In this document: piece by piece, positions 28,229 through 64,000 of the stretch
Numbering within the stretch: position 1 is the first letter of the stretch
Layout of the letters: each line of letters starts with the position of its first letter
NCBI RefSeq assembly: GCF_025526975.1
Contig: NW_026515669.1
Span: 1,550,001-1,614,000 of the forward strand
From: Fimicolochytrium jonesii
Lineage: Eukaryota
Length of the DNA stretch: 64,000 nt
Direction: 5' to 3'
Program-made: the position numbers and the translations under genes
Notes under the pieces: model-generated
Database searches by the model: none
Seen by the model: only the letters and a program-made list of their open reading frames with translations
Told to the model about the DNA's origin: nothing

Positions 28229-28273
28229 TATACATGTCTCCCTTATACATGTCTCCCATATACATGTCTCCCT
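28229..28273. repeat. 3 x 15-bp tandem repeat TATACATGTCTCCC(T/A)
   Basis: Three direct copies start at 28229, 28244 and 28259, in a divergent intergenic region. Confidence 0.9.
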
Positions 28274-49662: not shown

Positions 49663-50245
49663 GCTGGAGGGAATCCCCGTATTTGCCTATCTGTTCACAA
49701 TGCCTGGGCCGCGGGCGTATCATTGTCATTCCCTTCCGATTCGCTGGCTTTGTATCTTCTTTCATTTTCGCTTGTAATAATCTGCAATTTTGAGCCTTTT
49801 CATATCGGTGACCTTTTGTTCTCAACTTCACCAAATCTTTTTCCATTGTCCTCTCGGAGCCAAAGATGAGCATCTGGTCAAGACAGAATGTATTCCCATT
49901 TTACGTATTACAGTGCCCCGGAGAGCACGTTCAGATGCAAGCCAGCGCCCGACAGGTGAGCGTAACACAGAGGAATGGATGAGGCCTCTGTACATATTAC
50001 CATACATCTCCAAAGGCATCCGTTTCTGTAACGACTGCTACAAATTGTACATTGCTCACATAACATACATACGAAACCCAAATACGCCGGTCTACTTATG
50101 CTGCGCCAATTTCTAGCACTTCAGAGGTGACCGATTCCACACGAGCCTGATCCAGCTTCTCAGGCTGCAGTACTAAGAGAAGATGTGATAGCGTTGCCTG
50201 ATATCGCTGAACAGGATGTCTCGATCCGGAGAATCGGCAAGGACG

Positions 50246-51685
50246 TCAATGTTGAGTGATCCCGCGTGGGCTCTTTTCAGCGGCTGAGGCTGCGGTCCTG
50301 AGAGAAGACGTGAAAGGGCTGTCGGAGATCGCCGAACAAGAAGCCTCGCTTCGGATGCTGCCCAACGACGCATGGCTATCAAGCCCACGCGATGATAAGG
50401 CGTAGTTCCCAGTCTGCGGCTCAGTGCTTTTCGGGGGTGCACATTCCTGAACGTAGTCCCCAGCTGGCGGTTCCGAACGTCGTCCCGCGCTCACGTCGAC
50501 AAAGGAAGCTTCCAAGTTTGTCGTTAAGTTGATATGTTCCGCTGCAAACTGAGCAGCTTCGATTGTCTTGAATTCCGCATATGCTATGCTGGTGCCATCT
50601 TCGAAGCGGCTATACGTTATCTCCTTCGCATTCTCGTACGAGCCAAGCCATTCCGTGGATCGTTTCTTTCCAAAATTGGTATTGAACAACATCGTCTCCT
50701 TAAGATCGACCTGTATGGCGGCAGAGGGGTTGGCATCCGCCATTTTGAAAGGGGCTCGTTCGGGTGGCGACACCATCTCGGCTGTGGCTGGGGTATAACC
50801 CTGCACAGAGGAAACGATTTGAGGAAAGGGACTGATGTAAGCGGTGAAAGCGGGCCTTCGTCGGTCCCATACCTCGATATAACGAAAAAAGCGCCTGGCC
50901 GAGGGCGGATCGGAAAACGTAGCGATGCATTCTATTTCGGACAAGAGATCCACCCGCTGCCAGCCCCAGAATGATGATAAGAGATGCATGAGAACTATTT
51001 GGGAATCAAAATCGTTACGACTTCTGTCTTGACCATTTGAGTGGTTTCCATCACAACATATACCAGCCGGTTCATCGCCATAGGGGGTGACACGAACGCC
51101 GCGTGCTTTACTGTAGAGATCCGGATTCGTCACTTTGCCGTTTTGCTCCGCCAGATAGTCCCCAAAGTCGTCCAATTTCGAGATCGGTTCCGTGGGATTC
51201 CCGTACCGATCGACAAAGTAAGGCAGCAAATTTGTTTTCGAAGTGAGGTAATCGATGAAGCTAAAAGCGTCGTGAGTTGACTTAAATTTGACAACGTTCC
51301 CACGAGGAAAAGCTCTCCCTTGATCATATCCTGGTTGTCGCTGCGCTATCTTCTTTACGACCGAAACTGGCAGAAAGTTTCGAGGTATATAGACATATGG
51401 CGACTCGACGGCAACCGAAGCGATGGGAAACGGGCCGTTCTTCGGGTTCGCAAACGACCACTTATCCCAATGCAGCTTGACACGAGCATTAAGTTTCAGG
51501 TTGAGTGTCCCCAGAGCACGAACGGCGTTGGCGTGCGAGGTGAAGCATATGAGATGGAAGTGTGGGAACCAGAATATTTGTGTGAAGTCCTCGAACTCTT
51601 CGCAGGCTATGAGCAAATCGGCCTCATCCACACCTCTAGGCAGAGGCGGGCGGACCACTAGTCTGGATAGCTGTCCGACATCCAT
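50246..51685 (-). CDS. Hypothetical protein with several degenerate RRM-like modules; 5' end unresolved
   Basis: 479-aa ORF with repeated RNP1-like plus helix motifs (LICFTSHANAVRAL, VVKFKSTHDAFSF, IATFSDPPSARRF, AYAEFKTIEAAQFA). Confidence 0.6.
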   Translation of the reverse strand: MDVGQLSRLVVRPPLPRGVDEADLLIACEEFEDFTQIFWFPHFHLICFTSHANAVRALGTLNLKLNARVKLHWDKWSFANPKNGPFPIASVAVESPYVYIPRNFLPVSVVKKIAQRQPGYDQGRAFPRGNVVKFKSTHDAFSFIDYLTSKTNLLPYFVDRYGNPTEPISKLDDFGDYLAEQNGKVTNPDLYSKARGVRVTPYGDEPAGICCDGNHSNGQDRSRNDFDSQIVLMHLLSSFWGWQRVDLLSEIECIATFSDPPSARRFFRYIEVWDRRRPAFTAYISPFPQIVSSVQGYTPATAEMVSPPERAPFKMADANPSAAIQVDLKETMLFNTNFGKKRSTEWLGSYENAKEITYSRFEDGTSIAYAEFKTIEAAQFAAEHINLTTNLEASFVDVSAGRRSEPPAGDYVQECAPPKSTEPQTGNYALSSRGLDSHASLGSIRSEASCSAISDSPFTSSLRTAASAAEKSPRGITQH

Positions 51686-52079
51686 AGCGACGTTGCTGAA
51701 AAGGAGAGAGGTGACTAGTCCAAGTTCACAGCAGCGTTAAGACCACCCAAAGATGGACTTGCTCTTGCTTTGACGCGAGGAGAGCCGATTCGCGAACCGG
51801 AAGATTCTATTGACCGCAAGGACTTCGAGATACCTGTCAAATGCTGGGAAGTAGGAGCCACACCGTTGAGATTTGCAAACTCAACGACCCGCTTTGCCGT
51901 AATCCTTTGCGATGCACAGTCCAGATGGGGAAAGCAACAGGGTCTTGCTGTGCTGTCGAGCCTGACTTGACGCGTCTCTTACCACAAGTTGCCATCATCG
52001 GCGACGCCTCAGGCAGAGGTACAATGATGTGGATGGCAGATAACCACCACGGAAAATGGGATGGGGTGAGGATTCTAGA

Positions 52080-53197
52080 CTACCTACGGTTACGGGAGAA
52101 TACGTCTGGTCTGCGGCCATTGCCAAACACCACCGAACGCACAATCGAGAGGAAATTCTTGGTGCTCAGGACGTCCCGATTGTGCACTCTCATCCGTAGT
52201 CGTAGTGGTCGTCTTCCAGGAATCTCAAATGGCGTCCAGTCTTGGTTGATACATTCGGGGTTGGGGCAACCCACCAATCCATGGACGTATTCCATTCTTC
52301 CCTTTCTAGCTTGCCACAGCCGAGATGACAGCCGGCGTCGGATGTTTTTCTTCACACGCCCGTGGCAGTCTGGGCACACAGCGGCGACAGCGGGATAGTG
52401 GGGACAGCGGCGACAGCGGCGACAGCGGGATAGCGGGATAGCGGGGACAGCGGGATAGCGGGGACAGCAGGGCAGTAGTAATCAGCTGAAACTTACCGAA
52501 ATGGCCGCTCCTTCTTGATGTCTCGACAGAACAAGAGGTCACGCTTGCCCGGATCAATGCTGACAATGTTTGGAGCCTCCCGTAGTTTGGCGATGTGGTG
52601 CTCAAAATACAGCTGCTTGACTTCTTCCTGCATTTGGGCTTTGCTGCGCTTCTGGGCGCGATGGCCGTACTTGAGCCCTGGCTTCTTGAAGTGGATGGTA
52701 GCGGAATACCCGTTTGTGCTGATTGACACATCAAATTTGAGACCAAGCTTCTTTCGATCCTTGAAGACCTTGTCCTGCAATCCGTCATTCAGCAAGGTGA
52801 GGTGAGTGAAATAAGTGCAGAGGGATAGAGACTTACATTCACGTTGAGAAACTGCCCCCACAGCTCCCGCTTGCGTTGATCGGTGAGTTTCCCCATGCGA
52901 TGGCAGCCCAAGGCCAGGATATGAGTGGTTGGGATCTTCGTGTCGAGCCGAACAGATGACTGGATTCGAGATTTGCGCAGCGGGATAGCGGAAAACAGCC
53001 GCATTCCATGGTGCTCATAGAGGCGTGAGAGCTCACAATAGGCACCTGTGATGAGGCGAGGCAGGTGCGGACCATGATTAGACAAAAGAGGAACCCGCGG
53101 GGAGGGGGGGGCCAGAAATATACTAACTCACCTAAATATGGCATTGCGTCCACCGCAAGGCTGTATGCAAGCGGCTCATCCTGGGGAGGAAACAGAG
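52080..53197 (-). pseudogene. Fanzor1 (eukaryotic TnpB-like RNA-guided nuclease) remnant; intron-containing, internally deleted and interrupted by LTR insertion
   Basis: Spliced translation gives FSAIPLRKS..VRLDTKI, FDVSISTNG, RuvC-I VSIDPG (D at 52553-52555), zinc finger CPDC...VHGLVGCPNPEC and RuvC-III HNRDVLSTKN..GRRPDVFSR. In-frame introns at 53046-53131 and 52775-52836; a third donor at 52496. The RuvC-II region is absent. Confidence 0.85.
52378..52475. repeat. Imperfect 8-9 bp tandem repeat (CGG[C/G]GACAG / CGGGATAG) at the Fanzor deletion junction
   Basis: About 11 units read directly from the sequence. Confidence 0.88.
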
Positions 53198-53728
53198 TGT
53201 TATGGACGACGCGTCCATACCATGCGCTTACCTCATGACAGCATCCCAACAGTCAGTCAATGTCAATTCCCTGTCAAAACCTGACATCTGCCAAACCTCG
53301 CAGCCGCACGCAGCCGCGCTACCCCACACCTGCCACTGCCTTCATTTCTCCACTCAGCCGCACGTAGCCCCACCTCCCAACACTCGGCGCTTACAAACCC
53401 TTCTTCATACTTCCCCACGTACCCGCCCACAGCCTCAGCGTAGCCACCCCATCCCCAGTCTTCTGTTTCTATGCTTCCCCCACCCTTGGCGCTTCTCTTG
53501 GCTTCCCTCTCATTCCGCACCCTTCTGCTTCCCCACGCTTCCCCAGCCTTCCCAGAAAAGCATAAATAGCCGCCTCCCCTGAGCTCCCCACTTCCTGATC
53601 CCCCAGCAGATCAACACCAGTTCTTCCTAGTCTTGTTCTAGTTCTTGTTTCGGTCTGAATACCATTACCTGTCAACAACCTGCACCACAAGTCGCCTCTA
53701 TTTCCGTCGGCTCCGCCCATTCTTAACA
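53198..53728 (+). repeat. 5' LTR of element 1 (about 531 bp)
   Basis: TGTTA...TAACA termini and a TATA-like CATAAATA at 53561. The right boundary is inferred from the inverted terminus and adjacent PBS. Confidence 0.78.
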
Positions 53729-53779
53729 GTTTGATCTGCTCAACAACCCCCAGCCACTGTGCCTCCACGCCAAATCACC

Positions 53780-54706
53780 ATGTCCGACGCCCTTCCCCTC
53801 ACGGCCGAAGCCTGGCAAGCCATGTGCAATGCGATTGACGAACTTCGAGCGCAGAATACCACCCTACAAGCCGAACTAGCGCAAACCCAGACCACTGCCC
53901 CTGCCACTCACGCCCCCGAACCCAAAATCAGTCTCCCAGACAAATTTGATGGCACCCGAAGCAAGTTCCGTGGGTTCCTCAACCAGATCCGGCTTATGTT
54001 CGCCCTCCAACCCAGGCGCTACCCCAACGATCAGACCAAGATACGAACTATTGGCACCTACCTCACTGGCACCGCCCAGGCCTGGCTGGCGCCCCTTGTC
54101 GAACAAGACCATCATTCCCTTACGAACCTGGATGATTTCATCCAGCAAATGCAAGCAGTCTTTGGAGACAGCGACAGGATCCGCACGTCCGAAAACAAGC
54201 TCCAGAACCTTCGACAAACCCGTGCAGCAACAGAGTATGTAGCTGAATTCCGACAGCTGCAATGCGATGTGTCGTGGAATGACCAGGCATTGATTGCCAC
54301 CTTCCGTCGCGGCCTCAAAGAAGACGTCAAGGACTTAATGCTCACGATGCCCCCTACTGCCTCAATCGACACCGTGATGGAACAGGCCATCCAATGTGAC
54401 AACCGATTGTTTGAGCGCCATCTAGAGCGAAGCAGGAACCGACAGCCATATGTGCCAGTTACCACTAGCCCCACCCTCATGAGCCCCGACAACCGCCCAG
54501 ACGACCCTATGGTCATTGACGCCGCTCGTCCGCGAGGACCCCTCACACCGCTAGAGCGCCAACACCGCATCACAAACAAACTTTGCCTCTATTGTGGTAA
54601 ACCTGGCCACATAGCCAAACTCTGCCCAAACAAGATACGCACGGCGAATGTCGCGGTTAAGGAACCTGCACCCATCCAGGATTTTGCCCAAGTCCAGCTG
54701 CAGTAA
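53780..54706 (+). CDS. gag: Gag of element 1
   Basis: PDKFDG, LRQT..ATEYVAEF, FRRGL and zinc knuckle CLYCGKPGHIAKLC. Confidence 0.93.
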   Translation: MSDALPLTAEAWQAMCNAIDELRAQNTTLQAELAQTQTTAPATHAPEPKISLPDKFDGTRSKFRGFLNQIRLMFALQPRRYPNDQTKIRTIGTYLTGTAQAWLAPLVEQDHHSLTNLDDFIQQMQAVFGDSDRIRTSENKLQNLRQTRAATEYVAEFRQLQCDVSWNDQALIATFRRGLKEDVKDLMLTMPPTASIDTVMEQAIQCDNRLFERHLERSRNRQPYVPVTTSPTLMSPDNRPDDPMVIDAARPRGPLTPLERQHRITNKLCLYCGKPGHIAKLCPNKIRTANVAVKEPAPIQDFAQVQLQ

Positions 54707-57700
54707 AGGCCGAGCAGCTGGGCAACACCTGTCCTGGGCCTTCTCACCACGCAAGTACTGCCAAGGGAGAAGCCACAAAACCTTGCACCGATCCTGGCAT
54801 CTCCAGCAACACCCTTCTCCTGACCACCAACAATGTCAATCTCCGATCTGAGATACCCTCACCCATGCGGATCTTGGGCCCATCCTCACCATTCGAGTAC
54901 CCTGTTACCCTGCAGATATTGGCCCAGCGAGCTCCAGTTCAGCTTTCAGCACTACTTGACACCGGTGCGATGTCGTGCTTCATCGACGAAAGTTATGCCC
55001 GCAAGCACCGCATCCCACTTGTCAAGAAGGAGGACCCCATTGCGCTTGAACTGGTTGACGGACGTCCCAGCCATGCGGGCTCCATTACCCATCACACCCA
55101 ACCTTTGGGCATGTGGGTCAACGACCATTTTGAGGAGGTGGTATTCCATGTGACATGTTCCCCGCATGCGCCAATCATCCTGGGGCTTCCCTGGTTTGAG
55201 CTCCATGATGTGGAGCTACACTGGAAGACTCGCACTCTTTGCGTCCGCTGCCATTGCGGTTTTGGACAATACGCCTCCTGGGATGCCCTGCCAACAGAAC
55301 CTAGCCCGAAGCCCTCAAGAACCCCTGAACCTCTGATCCGTATCCATCAAGACGAGATTTCAGTCTCCCTAGCCCAGACACCCAACACACTGGACCCAGT
55401 ATCCACACCGATCCACGTATCGTTTATCAGCGCCCCAGCCTTCCGTGTGGCGGCAAGGCATGACCAGGCATTCATTGCCTACGCCAATCCGACCAAGTCA
55501 GATTCCCAAGCCCTGGCGACCACTCCTCCAAAAGATCCGAAGGCCATCATTCCTGAAGAATACCAAGATTTTGCGGACGTCTTCACCAAGAAGAACGCGG
55601 ATACCCTCCCAGAGCACTGACCCTACGACTGTCCCATCGACTTAGAAGAGGGCAAACAGCCACCGTTCGGCCCGATCTATAGTCTCAGCGAGCCTGAAAT
55701 GCAGGCACTCTGTGACTACCTTGAAGAGAACCTGGCTAAGGGGTTCATCAAGCACTCCAAGTCTCCCGCCGGTGCCCCAGTCCTCTTTGTCAAGAAAAAG
55801 GACGGTTCCCTCCGTCTGTGCGTCGACTATCGTGGACTCAACAATATCACCATCAAGAATCGCTATCCCTTGCCCTTGATTAACAGCATCATGGATCGTC
55901 TTCGAGGGGCACGCCGGCTCACCAAGATTGACCTCCGGGGAGCCTACAACCTTCTTCGGATCCGGCCAGGGGATGAATGGAAGACAGCGTTCCGATGTCG
56001 CTACGGCCTATTCGAGTATAATGTCATGCCGTTTGGGCTCACCAATGCCCCTGGAGTATTCCAACACCTCATGAACTGACATATTCCGTGACATTCTCGA
56101 CGTTTTTGTTGTGGTCTACCTTGACGACATTCTGATCTTCTCAAAAAACCCAGAAGACCACCCCAATCACGTCCGAGAGGTGCTCTCACGACTCCGCCAG
56201 CACGGGCTGTATGCGAAACCGGAAAAATGCGAATTCAACCGTGACTCTGTTGAGTTCCTGGGGTTTATCATCTCCCAGCAAGGCATTTCCATGGACCCAA
56301 AGAAGACGGCTGCCATTACCGAATGGGAACCCCCGACGAATGTCAAAGGCATCCAGCGCTTCCTTGGTTTTGCCAACTTCTACCGGCGATTCATCAAAGG
56401 GTACTCTGCGATCGTTGCACCCCTGACCACGCTCACTCGCAAAGACTTGCCATTCAAATGGACCCACGCTGCACACCTAGCTTTTGAAACCCTCAAGAAA
56501 GCCTTCACCTCCGCACCTATCCTGACTCACCCCGACCCTGACAAGCCCTTCATTGTCGAATCCGATGCCTCCGACTTTGCCCTTGGCGCCGTCCTCCTTC
56601 AACCCGACTGACACAGATCAACTCCACCCCGTGGCCTTTCACTCCCGCAAATTTACTCCTGAGGAAATCAACTATGAGATCTACGACAAGCAACTCCTGG
56701 CTATCCAAGACTCATTTGCTCAATGGCGACACCACCTCATTGGTGCCCGCCACAAGGTCATCGTTTACTGTGACCACAAGAACCTCCAGTACTTCATGAC
56801 TACCCGTACCCTCAACCGCCGCCAATCCCGCTGGTCAATCTTCTTTGCTGATTTCGACTTTGTCATCACATACCGCCCTGGTACCCAGCAACACCAAGCT
56901 GACGCCCTCTCTCGTCGCTCTGAATACGAGCTAAGGGAGGGGGAAGAAGCATTCCGCTCCCAGGAAACCACGATCCTCACCCCTGACCACCTCCGCCTGG
57001 CCGCCACTTATCTGACCCCACTGGACTCCTCGCTCCTTGACCAAATCAAAGCTGTCCTGGCATCCGATGTGTTTGCGCAAACCATCCGGCGACAGCTTAG
57101 GGCCCCCATTGCCCAGCAATCTCAAGAAGACCAAGAACGGATAAAGCGATTCTCCGAGGAAAATGGGGTTCTGCTGTACGACAACCTTGTCTACGTCCCC
57201 ACCAACAAGCTCCGTGCTGGGATCTGCCGGGACATGCATGACACGCGTTTGGCAGGACACTACGGCATGTCAAAGACCCTGGAGCTCATCTCACGCAACT
57301 ACTGGTGGCCTAGCCAGTGGCGTTTTGTCAAGTCCTACATCAGGTCCTGCGATGTATGTGCTCAAGCCAAGACCAGCAGACACAAGCCCTACGGACTCCT
57401 CCAACCCCTGCAGGTCCCTGACCGCCCCTGGGGGTCAATTTCCATGGACTTCATCACGGATCTACCCGCCAGTGATGGGGTTGATTCTGTGCTCGTTGTC
57501 ATCTGCCGGTTCACCAAGATGGCGCACTTTGTACCGTGCAGGAAAACCGCCACCGCTGAGTCAACTGCAGATCTGATCTGGCACCATGTCATCCGGCTCC
57601 ATGGACTCCCCGACGATATTGTATCTGACCGTGGCCCACAGTTCAACTCCCACTTCTGGAAACGTCTCTTGGCTCTCCTGGGAACCAAGGTCAACCTCTC

Positions 57701-58530
57701 ATCGGCGTTCCATCCCCAGAGCGATGGACAAACCGAGCGGACCAATCAGATTCTTGAGCAATACCTTCGCTGCTTTTGCAACTATCAACAAGATAACTGG
57801 AAGGAACTCTTGTCTTCTGCTGAGTTCTCTTACAATAACACCATCCACTCCGCCACCCAGACAACCCCCTTCTACGCCAACTATGGGTTCCATCCTCGAT
57901 TCAGTCTGGCTTCCGCCACCACAACCGAAGCCCTTAATCCTGCAGCCGAAGCTCGTGCCAACCATCTCAAGGAAATCCATGAACAGCTTGCCACTGAGCT
58001 CAAGGAGGCCCAAGGACGCATGAAGCGCTTTGCCGATGCTAAGAGGGCACCTGGCCCAGACATGAAACCCGGGGACAGTGTCTGGCTCTTACAGCGGAAT
58101 CTCAAGACTCTCCGACCTTCCCAGAAACTTGATCACCGTAAGATTGGCCCCTTCACAATCACGGAGAAGATCAACTCGGTCACATATCCCCTCAAGCTTC
58201 CCCCATCCTACAAAATTCACAACGTCTTCCATGTCTCCCTTCTTGAACCACGTTTCACCATTCCGGAGCGAACTGAGCCAGAACCCACCCCACCAGAAGA
58301 AGTCGAAGGACAGGAGGAATGGATTGTGGAAGACATTCTTGACTCCCGTATTCGACGCACGCACCTTCAGTACCTCATCAAGTGGCAGGGATGGCCAAGC
58401 TCGGAGAACACATGGGAGCCAGTGGAACACCTTGCCCGCTGTCAAGAGCTTGCAGTTCCACCAAAAGTACCCCGACAAACCCCGACCAAAGCCTGCCAAC
58501 ATCAAGACAACATCCGGACGCCGTGGCTAA
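54679..58530 (+). pseudogene. pol: Pol of element 1 (PR-RT-RNase H-IN-chromodomain), disrupted
   Basis: [38 protein letters not shown] integrase, SDRG, DGQTER and chromodomain YLIKWQGW..SENTWEP. In-frame TGA at 55618 and frameshifts near 56077, 56610 and 58450. Confidence 0.93.
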
Positions 58531-58557
58531 AGGAGGGGGTGATGTTATGGACGACGC
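58529..58557 (+). other. Polypurine tract and 15-bp stub of element 1 3' LTR
   Basis: AAAGGAGGGGG-TGA followed by TGTTATGGACGACGC, identical to the 5' LTR start. Confidence 0.88.
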
Positions 58558-58768
58558 TGTGGTGCGGTGAGGAAACAGGTCATATTGCCGCAACCCTAAC
58601 TCCCTGCGGTAACCCTACCCCACTAGCTAGTTTATATCCCCAGTCACATGACTTGTTGTCGTATTTTTCTACTTGTACATATCCGCGCGCGACTGCGCCG
58701 GCTTTCTCTTTTCTTCTTTACCCATAATACATCTATATATCCCTGCCTACCTCATTCTGGTGGAGAAT
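58558..58768 (+). repeat. Putative 5' LTR (58558-58754) and PBS (58758-58768) of element 2
   Basis: TGTGGTG...TACCTCA imperfect inverted termini, then TTC and TGGTGGAGAAT, which resembles the complement of a tRNA-Ala 3' end. The partner LTR is outside the window; an alternative end at 58809 cannot be excluded. Confidence 0.6.
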
Positions 58769-59181
58769 TGGGAAGTAGGTGTTTTGGGGACACCCACACC
58801 GTCGCTACAACCGCAACAAAGAAGAGTATCCGTTCTTCCGTTTCGTCCATACTTGGTGTACCGTTTTGAGCATTCCACGCCATTCCCGCCACTTTCCGCG
58901 TGGCTATAGCGATTTCCTTAGTTACCGGCGGCGATCCCCGGCATCCATCCATCCATCAGTTCCCGACAACAATCCACCAATCTGACGAGGGCTTCCTAGG
59001 CATCATCGTCCCGGCTATCCATTCCCGCTGAGTATCCATTGATTGGACCACTCTCCGCAACGATCCATTCATACACGTCGTCGTCCCGTGAGAAAAGCCC
59101 AGCTTGAGGTGCAGCCTGGATTTGGGCACTCGCAACAACACAGAAACCGTACTTTTCGTAACCGTCCGTCGAGAATATCCA

Positions 59182-60947
59182 ATGGCGTTCCCTGGCACTC
59201 CCGCCTTCTTCGGAAGCAACGATTGGCGTGACACTCGTCCTCTTTTTAGCGACACCCAAGAAGACAATGAACTCAGCGAGCACGACAGCAGCGACGGCCA
59301 CTCCGCTTGCGCCTGCGCTACGGAGTCCGCGCGCGCGCGCATCGACGCCTTCCTTGCCCGCTCACAAATCGAGCATGCGGGTGTAAAGATCGGATTGTAT
59401 GGCGCCATTTCGCATGTCGATGCAGAAGTCCTTGTCGGCTTGCTTCAATTCTGTACCGATATGGGCATTAGCTTCGATTCAGTATGTGAAGGCTTAGCGG
59501 ACGGTACCCTTGATCGAGTCTACGTCCAATCCCTCAAGTTCGCACTCGACGCTCATCCCGCGCAATTCGCCCTCCGTGAATTTGCGAACGTCGTCAAAAC
59601 TGCCACTGTTTGGCATCTCTCGCGTGATCGCTACCATGCCGGCCCGCATGCGGCGACTCGTCCTCAGTCGGCGCCCTCGAACAACCCTACTTCTCGTCCT
59701 CCGCATCGCGCTGGTGCTATACCTTCGGCACCTGTAGCCGCTGCCCCTCTAGATGGCGCCGTTAGTCAACAGGATCTCGTCACGTTGATGTTCCGCACCC
59801 TCGAACAACTTCAGCGCACCCCGCAGACAACCAATTCACAAGCGTCACTCAACAAAGGCCTGCCCAAATACGAAGGCAATAAATATCATCAGGACTCGTC
59901 ACGAATCTTGCAATGGCTCCGCACCTTCGACAAGCTCGCTGACTCTTGCGGCGTTCAAGAAAAGGACCGCTTCCGTTGGCTGTCTAAGGCGATTGATGAC
60001 AAAGACCAGCTCACTTGGACATGGTTTACGTCGTATCAAGGCAACACCCAAGATTGGAACCACGTTCGTACCGATATGGTTTTAGAATGCGCCTCGTCGG
60101 TCGACCGCGACCCGTCGCTCCTCGCCGACCGCATCTCAACCTTCCAGCGCGCTCCGGGGCAAACCATTCGTCAGTACGGCAGCCTATTCTTGTCATTAGT
60201 TTACGAACTCGAATACCTCAATAAACACATTGCAACGGTCGCTACGGAACTCACCCGGACCCAATTGCTCGAGCTTTTATCCGCGGTCTAGGCGATAGTG
60301 CTACGCTGGCGCACGCGCTTGGTTTGCCGAACTTCAACCAGCTTCCAATCGAGGAGTTGATTCGGGCTTGCGCCGATTACGCCGAACGCAAGGACGCATA
60401 CTCAGCGCCAAACGTGCCGTATCAGGCGTCGACTCGTCCATCGTACCCCGCACCGACGGCTACGAACATCCCGGGCACCAACAACCAGTATCCCTCAAAT
60501 GCGCGGAACCAGCGTCCTTCGGTACCTCGCGCACAGCCCGCTCCACGGGTCTTGCAACCAGCGCCGCAAGCTTCGGCCCCGACGACTTCGGCGGCTCCGG
60601 CAGCGTCTGGTCCGGATGACTTGACTGCCCGCATGCGCGACCTTTCCATCAAGACCGCCGGTAATAGCAACCAGTATCCTCCGGGCCTTCCCAGCGCGCG
60701 CCCTCAACGCCGCGACCGCGCCTGCTTTCGTTGCGGACAATCCGGCCACATCTTCAGGGATTGTCAATCCACCACGAAACTGGATACCTGGCGTGGGTAC
60801 CAGTTAGCGGCCGCCTTCTACCCCGAAGAAGTCCATGAGTACGACGAAGATCATACCGAATATTACTCGATGGTCCTCCGCGATGTGGGCCACTACTACG
60901 CGGACCCGGAAGACCAGGATTTTCCCAATGGGAGCTCGGAGCAGTAG
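59182..60947 (+). pseudogene. gag: Gag of element 2, with one frameshift
   Basis: LPKYEG..WLRTFD and FQRAPGQTIRQY. Adding one T to the run at 60275-60278 restores LELFIRGL. Zinc knuckle CFRCGQSGHIFRDC. Confidence 0.82.
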
Positions 60948-63900
60948 GGGACTCCGACCTCCCGCAATACGATCCTCCGGATCCCCGCCCAATGTCGTTG
61001 GCGATTTTTATGGCTGAGAAGAGAAAAGCGGATGAGCTCCCGTCCGAACCGGCTTCGAAATGACTGAACACTTCGACGCACCCGATGCCCTTCCCGGCAC
61101 GGCCCCCGCTCAAGACTCGTCCCTCGGTGACGCCCGCCCGCCCGCCGGGTGTCCTTCCTTCACGTTACACTGTCGGTCAACAACAGAGTACGCCGATGCC
61201 GGCGCGGTTTCCCCCGGTACCTCCCCCGCCGACCAGATTACCTCCTACACCCATTGTCGAGTTACCTCGCGTTACTCCACCGCCTAAATCGGTACGCTTC
61301 AACACTCCCACCAGTACACCGATGGAGATCGATCCCCGGGGGACATCCGGTCCAACCCGACCTGCCGCACCGCACAAGCCGCCGTCACCGATTGTTCCCA
61401 CCCGCAAGTCCCCCTCACCGCCGCCCCGCGCCGATTCCCTGGTCGGTGATGACGATCCGCGCATTCCTGCTCCCATCCGTGCGCTGATTGACAAGAAACA
61501 ATTCGATATCGTCAACTTCCTCAACGAGACTGAAGTGCGCGGACTTACTCTTGCCGACCTACTCCAATGGAGCCCGGCCTTACGCGAACGCCTCCGCGAC
61601 GCGATGAAACTCGTCCCCAAGGTGCGCCGCGCGGCTCTATGTTTTCGCGAACCTCTACTTGGTGCCTGGCACCCTGACGCTGAGCCTCCGGACCATGACA
61701 GCGACAACACCCTCAACGGACGTCTCGACTTTCACCTCAAAGCTCTCTCCAAGGTTGATGTTTCCGCAACCGGCACCCATTACATGAACGCGCTCATCCA
61801 GAATTCGCCCGCGAAGTGCCTCTTCGACGGTGGTTGCTGCTTGATCGCCATCAGCGCCGAGGTCCGCAAGCGCCACCAATGGACTCTCACCAAGGTTCCT
61901 TCTACCTTTCATTTGCGCCAAGTTGACGGTTCCGCTCCTAAGCTCGAGGGAGAGGTCCACAACCTCGTCGTCACCATCGAGGGTCATCAAGTTCCGATCA
62001 ACGTCCTTTCCATCGTCGGAATGGACGCCGAGTGCTTACTAGGTCGTCCATTTCTGGAGATGGTAATGGGCATCACCCATTGGAAGAATTCCATTTACCA
62101 TTTCAAGATTCACGGCTCCTGGATCCTCGTCCAAGGTAGCACTGGAGAGACGCGCGAAGTCCGTACCCTCACGGCGGCCGAGGAACGTGAATGGGATCAG
62201 CACGGTCGTACACCCCTTCTCGATATCACTCCTCCGGCGCCACGCACCCGTTCCCAAACCAGGCAAGCCAACATCTCCTCATTGATCGCTGACGGCTTCA
62301 AGGTGGAGATCGATCACACGGGCGATCAGACGCTCGCTGACATTCGTAGTGGCGCTCTCTTCGGCATACTACAAACTGAGCCCTGTCCACCCCTACCCGG
62401 CGACTACTATTCCCCGGATTCCGATCAGATGGATTTCCGCATCAACCTGCTACGCACCTTCGCGAATGCCCCGGTCCCCAACCAGATCACCGTCCCGGCT
62501 TTCCGACAACTTAAACAGGCTTTGCAACTCGAGCCCAAACTGCCCGAATTCACTCTCCCCGCGACACATGAGTTCCGCTTCCTCACGTGGAATGTTAATT
62601 CTTTGCGCAACCTCGTCCGCAAGGGGGTCGACCTGGGCTCCCTCTTCAACCGCCTGAACCTCGATATCGTTTGTTTCCAAGAAATCAAGTGTTCGCGTTC
62701 TTCATTACCGCTGTCGCTCACGGACATTCCGGGTTACCGCTCCTTTTGGTCGCTCAGTGAGACCAAACAAGGTGTCAAAGGCGTTGGGACGTACGTCCGC
62801 GCTGAGTTAGCCGCTACGCTACGCAAGGTCACAACCGACGCTGATCTACCGATCGACCCGGACGCCGATTGTGAGGGCCGTGTTCTCGCCCTCGACTTCG
62901 ACCAATGCACCGTGATCAACGTCTATTATCCGAACGGCGGGATGGGCGACGCTGATCAACAGGCTCATGCGATTACTTCCAAGATCGCCCTCCATCAGAC
63001 TCTGCTTCAGATCGCCACCGCGGCCCGGACGAGCGGACGACACGTCATATTCGCCGGCGATTTCAACGTTGCGCATACCGATTCGGATGTTCACCCCAAC
63101 CTGAAACACCAGATGCACACCGGTGTGACCCCAGCGGAGCGACAACTGCTCACGCATTTGACCGATCACAATTTCGTCGACACTTACACTACCTGCCACC
63201 CTGACGCGCCGGCCGGTGATGGCTACACCACATGGTGGTTCTCCAAGCACGCGCGCGAACGGAACATTGGGCTTCGACTCGATTATGTCTTCCTCGGTCT
63301 GCCGGATGCGGATTATACTCCTCGTATCACTTGCAATGTCCTGCACGAACTCCACGGCTCCGATCACGTTCCGCTGTTATTCACCCTACGCACCATAGTC
63401 AAAGAAACGATCCCCGAGTATCACGCCAAGATGTCGTCGTTAGTCAACGCTTCCCCGGAGTACGTTTCGCCCCTAGCCCCCCGCGACTCACCTACGCTCG
63501 TCCGCCAAGTCGCCGGCATCACTATCGAGTCGATCACTGCGCGATCCATACGCCCGACACCCATGCGCCCACTCAAGGTCGGCACCCGCACCTTCCAGGT
63601 TGCCGAAGATTTACCACCCGCGGTCGTTACCGAGTTAGAACAACTTCTTCACGAATACCACGACGAGTTCTGCAATAAAGACGAAGTGCCCCGCACCTTC
63701 AAGAACGTGCCTGAAATGAATCCGGTCTTGAAGCCCGACCATACCGGTCAACGCAAACTCCCTTTCCCGAAAACGCGCGCGCACAGCCCCAAGGATACCA
63801 AGGTGTTAAACGAATGGTGCGACCGGATGCTCCGGTGGGACAAGATCGAGCCGGTTACCGATCCCCCAGTGGTCGCTGCGCTGCCCATCGTCGTCTACAA

Positions 63901-64000
63901 GAATGGTGTAGCGCGGGTATGTGCGCACTTCAAGGTCAACAGCGAGATCCAAGCTTTCCGGTACCCCATCATTCCCGCTCACCTTACCTTGCAACGTGTC
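60917..64000 (+). pseudogene. pol: Pol of element 2: protease - exonuclease III/AP endonuclease - RT (partial)
   Basis: Manually translated frame (codon starts at position mod 3 = 2) has one TGA at 61061, then is open from 61064 to the end. Protease CLFDGG (61826)...LLGRPF, EEP domain 62573-63388, and RT start LLHEYHDEF...KIEP...PIVVYKNGVARVCAHF. Confidence 0.88.

What the first reader, a model, noticed from the sequence alone, without database searches (positions are those of the whole stretch)
52080..53197. Intron-rich Fanzor1 RNA-guided nuclease remnant hidden across short ORFs
Seen: removing two canonical introns yields a continuous PLAYSLAVDAMPYLGAYCELSRLYEHHGMRLFSAIPLRKS...LNVNDKVFKDRKKLGLKFDVSISTNG...VSIDPGKRDLLFC. 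A downstream piece encodes CPDC, CPNPEC and NRD. Established: DPG, zinc finger and NRD in this order define TnpB/Fanzor RuvC domains, and chytrid Fanzor1 proteins are programmable nucleases. Inference: this copy is dead because RuvC-II is deleted and an LTR element is inserted. At least three introns in 1.1 kb suggest an old, well-assimilated lineage, and intact relatives may exist in the genome.
Basis: partly seen in the sequence, partly recalled or inferred. Interest (0 to 1): 0.72.

Follow-up and report, generated by a model that had tools for sequence, protein, structure and literature searches.

The report
Dead intron-split Fanzor1 copy in chytrid
This is a broken copy of a chytrid-fungus jumping gene for an RNA-guided DNA cutter (Fanzor1): it has lost a catalytic residue and is split by retrotransposons, while several sister gene models keep all three catalytic residues and part of its guide-RNA scaffold likely survives behind it.

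Summary
Confirmed. Removing two GT-AG introns (86 and 62 nt) gives 183 stop-free residues that align without gaps to a 761-aa paralog (159/183). Three pieces each hit SpuFz1 (E 1e-14, 2e-10, 2e-16). The copy is dead: 146 codons are deleted, including the catalytic Glu (SpuFz1 E541), and a Ty3 chromovirus sits in a REC-domain exon, with a second LTR element nested in it. The neighbouring gene equals a Fimicolochytrium jonesii model (432/432). Among 46 F. jonesii Fanzor models, 17 keep D-E-D. New here: a SpuFz1-like omegaRNA start motif and hairpin lie 23 nt after the stop. The 'old lineage' inference is only partly right: the copies are young (85-95% identical), and these three introns are absent from SpuFz1 and from 9 of 11 related loci examined. 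Intron-rich Fanzors and Gypsy-interrupted copies are already in print, and the scan noted dead Fanzor1 remnants in other genomes. Verdict: new member of a known kind. Side lead: the nested LTR element encodes an exonuclease III domain in its pol.

The parts
53132..53197 (-). Fanzor1 exon remnant (REC domain), cut at its 5' side by the LTR insertion
   Evidence: 22 residues match paralogs, 22/22 in several and 21/22 in P0033; frame runs up to the LTR edge
53046..53131 (-). Intron A, 86 nt, phase 1
   Evidence: GTGAGT donor, TCACAG acceptor, CTAAT branch-like site; 14 of 17 paralog models join as here, 3 deviate at this junction
52837..53045 (-). Exon, REC to WED region
   Evidence: hits SpuFz1 8GKH, E 1.8e-10
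52775..52836 (-). Intron B, 62 nt, phase 0
   Evidence: GTAAGT donor, TTGCAG acceptor; 23 of 29 models join as here, 6 lack a few residues starting exactly at this junction
52497..52774 (-). Exon, WED and RuvC-I; catalytic Asp of DPG at 52555-52553 (equivalent of SpuFz1 D383)
   Evidence: hits SpuFz1, E 1.3e-14; catalytic residues named
52383..52496 (-). 5' part of intron C (phase 2) with a low-complexity tract of 8-9 nt units; no acceptor left
   Evidence: GTAAGT donor; tandem array 52378-52475; 30 of 32 models join PF to RYTS, and P0011 reads through similar low-complexity sequence here
52380..52383 (-). Deletion junction: 146 codons missing (P0033 516-661), including catalytic Glu656 (SpuFz1 E541)
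   Evidence: 146-aa gap against 11 of the 12 F. jonesii models compared, 155 aa against the twelfth
52080..52379 (-). 3' coding tail: zinc finger (CPDC, CPNPEC), RuvC-III NRD (Asp at 52175-52173, SpuFz1 D606), stop 52082-52080
   Evidence: hits SpuFz1, E 1.9e-16; 95/99 to P0033
52029..52057 (-). Likely omegaRNA scaffold start and stem-loop 1 (TTTTCCG-N5-GTTRTC at 52056-52039)
   Evidence: same motif and spacing as SpuFz1 and ghost scaffolds listed; only match in the window at up to 1 mismatch; hairpin z -3.34; similar start and hairpin after the stop in L002, L003, L006
51980..52028 (-). Predicted stem 2 and right end of the element, ending in TA at 51980 (uncertain)
   Evidence: would give a 78-nt scaffold against 75 nt in SpuFz1; this fold is not the minimum-energy one; no paralog DNA to confirm
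53198..58557 (+). Ty3/Gypsy chromovirus inserted in the Fanzor exon: 5' LTR 53198-53728 (TGTTA...TAACA), gag, broken pol with chromodomain, first 15 nt of 3' LTR at 58543-58557; candidate target duplication CAGAG at 53193-53197
   Evidence: Pfam gag, protease, RT, RNase H, integrase, chromo; LTR ends and in-frame TGA at 55618; pol split over four ORFs
58558..64000 (+). Second LTR-type element nested in the 3' LTR of the first, running off the window; the 5' half of the Fanzor would lie beyond it
   Evidence: 3' LTR match to the 5' LTR stops after 15 nt and a new TG-start begins; zinc knuckle, protease, exonuclease III domain
50246..51685 (-). Neighbouring host gene, start 295 nt beyond the predicted right end; not part of the element
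   Evidence: 432 of 432 residues identical to F. jonesii model P0095, with two introns of 69 and 72 nt

Best explanation
This is a catalytically dead copy of a multicopy, intron-containing, SpuFz1-like Fanzor1 element of the chytrid Fimicolochytrium jonesii, broken by a 146-codon deletion and a nested retrotransposon insertion, with its guide-RNA scaffold likely still lying after the stop codon. How the family works (inferred from SpuFz1): an intact copy is transcribed and spliced to a protein of about 760 aa; the protein loads an omegaRNA made from the element's right end plus about 15 nt of flank, cuts DNA matching that flank next to a TAM, and so would favour restoring the element at emptied sites. 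The copies share introns, so they likely multiplied as DNA with a transposase supplied in trans (inferred; none was seen). History of this copy: shown are the deletion, the LTR insertion in a coding exon, the decay of that LTR element and the later nesting of a second one; inferred are CpG-methylation-driven decay and a deletion starting in the repeat tract of intron C. The order of deletion and first insertion is unknown.
For: Pieces hit SpuFz1 separately; paralog P0006 hits it at E 3.5e-139; the AlphaFold model of P0033 matches 9CEU at E 1.7e-49, TM 0.89 by target length. Gap-free splice to paralogs and a constant 146-aa gap holding Glu656. In the quick tree the copy falls inside the F. jonesii clade (support 100), sister to a Gaertneriomyces protein (99). 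17 of 46 models keep DPG, DEY and NRD motifs. 8 of 21 residue differences from the paralog majority are CpG-type transitions against 4-12% expected (P 1e-6 to 1.5e-3); CpG o/e is 0.84 in the remnant and 0.74 in the first LTR element against 1.02-1.08 in host DNA. Private changes at otherwise invariant positions, for example Leu to Pro (0 of 22) and Gly to Val (0 of 30).
Against: The paralogs are automatic gene models, many partial or chimeric; intact ORFs at DNA level are not verified. The whole omegaRNA candidate does not fold better than shuffles (z -1.45 to +0.80), and the motif pattern was written after seeing the window and the SpuFz1 scaffold. The tree is the quick one; the careful search did not finish. 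CpG classes are judged from amino-acid majorities, not from ancestral DNA.
Confidence: 0.92

Rival explanations
1. Dead protein, living guide: the locus works like an S. punctatus 'ghost', making an omegaRNA that loads onto Fanzor from an intact copy and aims it at the empty allele just upstream of the neighbouring gene. This is compatible with the best explanation and adds a function.
For: Scaffold start motif and stem-loop 1 are kept; ghost omegaRNAs of S. punctatus work with SpuFz1; complete-looking paralog models exist.
Against: The element's own promoter would lie more than 10 kb away behind two opposite-strand LTR elements. The loop differs from SpuFz1 at G17 and G20, which contact the protein. 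Stem 2 is not well supported. The locus shows methylation-type decay.
Confidence: 0.12
2. The deletion is an assembly error at the low-complexity tract, and the copy is broken only by the LTR insertion.
For: The junction lies at the edge of a tandem array.
Against: The missing part is at least 438 nt of unique coding sequence, which repeat collapse would not remove. Many other models of the family are also partial. The copy would be dead anyway.
Confidence: 0.04
3. A domesticated nuclease-dead Fanzor that acts as an RNA-guided DNA binder.
For: The zinc finger, two catalytic Asp residues and the scaffold motif remain; no stop codons in 282 retained codons.
Against: The WED/REC half is cut off by more than 10 kb of retrotransposon; the deletion removes the bridge-helix region and much of RuvC; exon 3 runs into a stop two codons into intron C; private damaging substitutions.
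Confidence: 0.02

Closest known systems
SpuFz1 / Spu-1 element of Spizellomyces punctatus (PDB 8GKH, 9CEU-9CEZ; PMC10432273, PMC3627910, PMC11423790)
   Same: 44% identity over 641 columns between P0033 and the S. punctatus protein P0048; same fold; D-E-D triad positions; zinc finger; omegaRNA start motif right after the stop; multicopy family with partial copies and Gypsy/Ty3 insertions (11 loci with embedded genes in S. punctatus).
   Different: SpuFz1 is a single intronless ORF; this family has at least three introns in the part seen. F. jonesii models carry an extra N-terminal stretch of about 130 residues, Pro-rich, predicted disordered (pLDDT below 50), with a basic RRKRRK motif. TAM-contact residues Q129, Q130 and Y345 are kept, but N133 aligns to Ala and R96 to Gly in a shorter loop, so the TAM may differ from CATA. 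This copy is dead.
Intron-containing Fanzors in general, e.g. CrFNuc of Chlamydomonas (PMC10530073)
   Same: Spliceosomal introns in a multicopy Fanzor; densities up to about 9.6 per kb are reported, against about 3 in 1.1 kb here.
   Different: CrFNuc copies are tied to Helitron2; no transposase association could be tested here.
Ghost Spu-1 elements (PMC10432273)
   Same: omegaRNA scaffold without a working nuclease gene.
   Different: Ghosts are a distinct 550-nt family with their own ends; this is one decayed full-length copy, and expression of its guide is untested.
Parasitella parasitica Fanzor1 (PDB 9CF0-9CF3)
   Same: Fungal Fanzor1 fold.
   Different: About 20% identity in the structural match, with a large RuvC insertion absent here.

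Membership tests
Fanzor1 (SpuFz1-like) | Sequence homology to a characterised Fanzor1 across REC, WED, RuvC and zinc-finger regions | tested here: met
Fanzor1 (SpuFz1-like) | Fanzor1 fold with enlarged REC lobe | tested here: met
   model of paralog P0033, not of the remnant: best matches SpuFz1, then PpFz1, then GtFz1; Fanzor2 9B0L far lower
Fanzor1 (SpuFz1-like) | Rearranged RuvC triad with the Glu a few residues before the zinc finger | tested here: met
   met for the family: 17 of 46 models, Glu656 and Cys663 in P0033 (definition)
Active Fanzor1 nuclease (this copy) | All three catalytic residues in one uninterrupted gene | tested here: not met
   Glu deleted with 146 codons; LTR elements in the REC exon
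Fanzor1 (SpuFz1-like) | omegaRNA scaffold between stop codon and right end | tested here: inconclusive
   start motif and stem-loop 1 present; stem 2 and 3' end unsupported by folding statistics; no Rfam match at gathering score
Fanzor1 (SpuFz1-like) | Multicopy in a eukaryotic genome | tested here: met
   21 hits among 81 candidates, all labelled F. jonesii; 46 models gathered
Spu-1-type TIR element | About 30-nt terminal inverted repeats and TA duplication | not testable with these tools
   left end lies beyond the window and no genome is held; no TIR pair found in the window
Fanzor1 (SpuFz1-like) | RNA-guided, TAM-dependent DNA cleavage | not testable with these tools
   needs a bench assay on an intact paralog
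Ty3/Gypsy chromovirus (first insertion) | LTRs, gag, PR-RT-RH-IN order, C-terminal chromodomain | tested here: met

The most novel reading that the evidence does not exclude
F. jonesii holds a young, still-active Fanzor1 family that gained three spliceosomal introns and a disordered N-terminal arm after parting from its relatives and reads a TAM other than CATA; dead copies such as this one keep making guides and act as ghosts in the making, aiming intact Fanzor at empty alleles next to host genes.
Probability: 0.12. Interest if true: 0.6.

Novelty: new member of a known kind. Interest (0 to 1): 0.32.

Why it matters
The remnant itself is an ordinary transposon relic. Its value is as a pointer. 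It marks a Fanzor1 family close to SpuFz1, the Fanzor already engineered for human-cell editing, with complete-looking paralog models, changed TAM-contact residues and a readable scaffold start, so a new orthologue with a possibly different TAM can be tested directly. It also offers a case for dating intron gain inside a DNA transposon. I found no paper linking Fanzor to this species: the listings show none, and supplement searches found no Fimicolochytrium. That absence is weak, since one search did not find Spizellomyces either.

Tried and rejected
No whole genome was held, so tBLASTn for paralog DNA, left end and ghosts could not be run. Sequencing runs: none was listed, so no reads were laid; no RNA holder listed. 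Pfam and NCBIfam gave nothing above cut-off for the pieces or paralogs; the precomputed family PF26935 shown did not appear in my scans. Rfam gave 5 matches, all far below gathering score. My first reading, that the LTR sits in an intron just before an acceptor, was wrong: those bases are coding in the paralogs. The idea that the repeat tract is filler DNA made at the deletion was dropped because model P0011 reads through similar sequence at the same junction (weak, protein level only). tBLASTn of three full proteins found no other Fanzor piece in the window. A TIR search in L002, L003, L006 and L012 gave nothing convincing. MAFFT alignments of four omegaRNA candidates were out of register, so no covariance model or pair count was made; the comparison with SpuFz1 is by eye. 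One search used exon ends off by one base and was redone. P0041 (an unrelated 51-aa cluster member) was dropped before the census of 46. The atlas search did not complete. No complex prediction was run.

Full report
Observation. The minus strand of 53197-52080 carries four coding pieces. Two complete GT-AG introns of 86 and 62 nt separate the first three; the host gene next door has introns of 69 and 72 nt. Joined by coordinates, the three exons read 183 residues without a stop and align in a single gap-free block to paralog P0033 residues 333-515, 159 identical. A third donor, GTAAGT at 52496, opens a low-complexity tract that runs straight into the codons for V-C-P-D-C; the 99-residue tail matches P0033 662-761 at 95 positions.

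Identity. Exon 3, exon 2 and the tail each find SpuFz1 (PDB 8GKH) as best hit, at E 1.3e-14, 1.8e-10 and 1.9e-16. A search with exon 3 gave 21 proteins among 81 candidates, all labelled Fimicolochytrium jonesii, at 80-98% identity; this is a spizellomycetalean chytrid. The neighbouring gene at 51685-50249 is identical over 432 of 432 residues to an F. jonesii model, so the window is of that species or indistinguishable from it here. Paralog P0006 matches SpuFz1 at E 3.5e-139. The AlphaFold model of P0033 (mean pLDDT 78, residues 1-129 below 50) matches SpuFz1 structures at E about 2e-49, then PpFz1 and GtFz1. In a quick tree of 40 rows the window copy lies within the F. jonesii clade (support 100), sister to a Gaertneriomyces protein (99) and apart from the S. 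punctatus clade; the careful tree did not finish.

Why it is dead. SpuFz1 uses D383, E541 and D606 (passages of PMC11423790; section 10 of PMC10432273). In the alignment these fall on DPG, the Glu of LLDEY, and NRD. The window keeps the first and third. The gap between exon 3 and the tail is 146 residues against 11 of the 12 F. jonesii models compared (155 against the twelfth) and holds Glu656 of P0033. At the other end the frame runs up to 53197, where a Ty3 chromovirus begins: 5' LTR 53198-53728 bounded by TGTTA and TAACA, candidate duplication CAGAG, gag, and a pol broken by a stop and frame changes. The insertion is in a coding exon of the REC domain. Its 3' LTR matches the 5' LTR for 15 nt at 58543-58557, then a second element begins and runs off the window, so the 5' half of the Fanzor is not visible. 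Of 21 residue differences from the paralog majority over 282 columns, 8 are CpG-type transitions, against 4-12% expected under three transition biases. CpG is depleted in the remnant (0.84) and the first LTR element (0.74) but not in host DNA (1.02, 1.08) or the second element (1.27). I read this as decay under methylation; that step is inference.

The family. Searches gave 46 F. jonesii models after dropping P0041. 17 of 46 keep all three catalytic motifs, and 6 of these also hold the REC motif NLKVN (P0006, P0033, P0034, P0038, P0042, P0046); P0033 (761 aa) looks complete. Nine long models are 85-95% identical to each other. Long models start with about 130 extra Pro-rich residues. Of the TAM-contact residues named, Q129, Q130, R291 and Y345 are kept in P0033, while N133 aligns to Ala (16 of 17 models with this region) and R96 to Gly in a loop five residues shorter. 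A different TAM is therefore plausible but untested.

Introns and age. Paralog models mostly join at the same three points (14 of 17, 23 of 29, 30 of 32), and the exceptions deviate at those junctions, which suggests that the other copies have the same introns and spread as DNA. SpuFz1 is one ORF (passages of PMC10432273 and PMC3627910; native DNA cell of 1917 letters in the supplement). Of 36 metagenome loci I examined 11: nine align across all three positions with no insertion of 10 or more residues, L020 covers two, and L013 is inconclusive. L001, L002 and L003, and probably L005, share a different phase-1 intron near P0033 residue 273. So introns are old in this clade, but the three in the window look lineage-specific and the expansion is recent. 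Intron-rich Fanzors are known, up to about 9.6 per kb (section 6 of PMC10530073).

The omegaRNA. The SpuFz1 and ghost scaffolds in the supplement of PMC10432273 begin TTTTCCG, five stem bases, then GTTGTC. The window has TTTTCCG-N5-GTTATC 23 nt after the stop. It is the only match in 64 kb on both strands at up to one mismatch, with 0.09 expected and 9 of 100 shuffles reaching one; an exact match within 100 nt of the stop has a rough chance of 2e-6, but the pattern is post hoc. The five stem bases differ from SpuFz1 yet still close a hairpin (z -3.34 for a 34-nt piece). L002, L003 and L006 show a similar start and hairpin after or at the end of their ORFs, though with z near 0. Longer stretches of the window candidate do not beat shuffles. 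A stem 2 ending in TA at 51980 would give 78 nt, but costs 4.6 kcal/mol over the minimum as I drew it, and a variant lies within 1.2. The scaffold start is likely; the right end is a guess.

Mechanism. By analogy with SpuFz1 and the restorative-homing model (passages of PMC13565253), intact copies would make a spliced nuclease that loads the right-end RNA, cuts sites matching the flank and helps the element persist. No transposase is encoded in the Fanzor models, as for Spu-1. This copy cannot cut. It could at most donate a guide, as ghosts do; I give that 0.12 because its promoter is cut off and it shows decay.

Novelty. S. punctatus already has 42 full or partial Fanzor loci, 11 with embedded genes including Gypsy/Ty3. 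The scan's own notes list dead Fanzor1 remnants in other fungi (unchecked); look-ups by sequence and by place gave nothing. I found no description of the F. jonesii family in search listings or supplements. One scanned supplement of PMC10432273 could not be read, and I did not see the supplements of the bioRxiv preprint 10.1101/2023.08.09.552727 (passages only), which may list it. Verdict: a new member of a known kind, dead at this locus, interest 0.32.

Papers seen: PMC10432273 (passages, section 10, supplement rows); PMC10530073 (passages, section 6, supplement search); PMC3627910, PMC11423790, PMC13565253, PMC3248453, PMC5029228 and 10.1101/2023.08.09.552727 (passages); all others as search listings only. 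The term self-priming for Tf1-type elements is recalled, not from a call.

Noticed in passing
window 58558-64000 (+), ORF 61064-64000: The nested LTR-type element has an exonuclease III / AP-endonuclease domain between protease and the start of RT (TIGR00633, 173.9 bits against cut-off 99). Environmental polyproteins P0098, P0102 and P0104 show the order PR, EEP, RT, RNase H, integrase, and P0102 and P0104 have a weak Dam methyltransferase match (29.7 and 27.5 bits, cut-off 28.1) after the EEP domain. A second F. jonesii copy is 99% identical over 508 aa (P0096). Listings of five paper searches and passages of two papers showed no description; Repbase was not available. Possibly more novel than the Fanzor and worth its own follow-up.
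   Followed up: partly
window 53605-53615 and 53729-53740: The sequence after the 5' LTR is complementary over 10 nt to a stretch inside the LTR, as expected for a self-priming, Tf1-type primer site (term recalled).
   Followed up: partly
protein P0077: Another F. jonesii model ends its Fanzor part five codons from the insertion site seen here, followed by residues compatible with a TGTTAT LTR start: possibly an independent chromovirus insertion in the same exon.
   Followed up: no
protein P0013: Model joins a tyrosine-recombinase-like region (weak PF00589) to Fanzor exons; probably a chimeric model across a nested element rather than a partner recombinase.
   Followed up: no
L001:640-705, L002:1230-1295, L003:3185-3255, L005:380-565: Four environmental Fanzor1 loci share an intron at the same position in the REC domain; L002, L003 and L007 also break near P0033 residue 698.
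   Followed up: partly
L018, L020, L021, L028, L029 downstream of the ORF: A separate Fanzor-like family shares a conserved non-coding tail; L020 and L021 diverge at one point, which marks a right end and probable omegaRNA.
   Followed up: no
window 50246-51685 (-): The neighbouring gene found only its own F. jonesii model among 6358 candidates of similar length and no Pfam or NCBIfam family.
   Followed up: partly
window 50153-50230 and 50278-50355: A 78-nt direct repeat at 76% identity around the end of the neighbouring gene.
   Followed up: no
window 28229-28273: Three tandem copies of a 15-nt unit.
   Followed up: no
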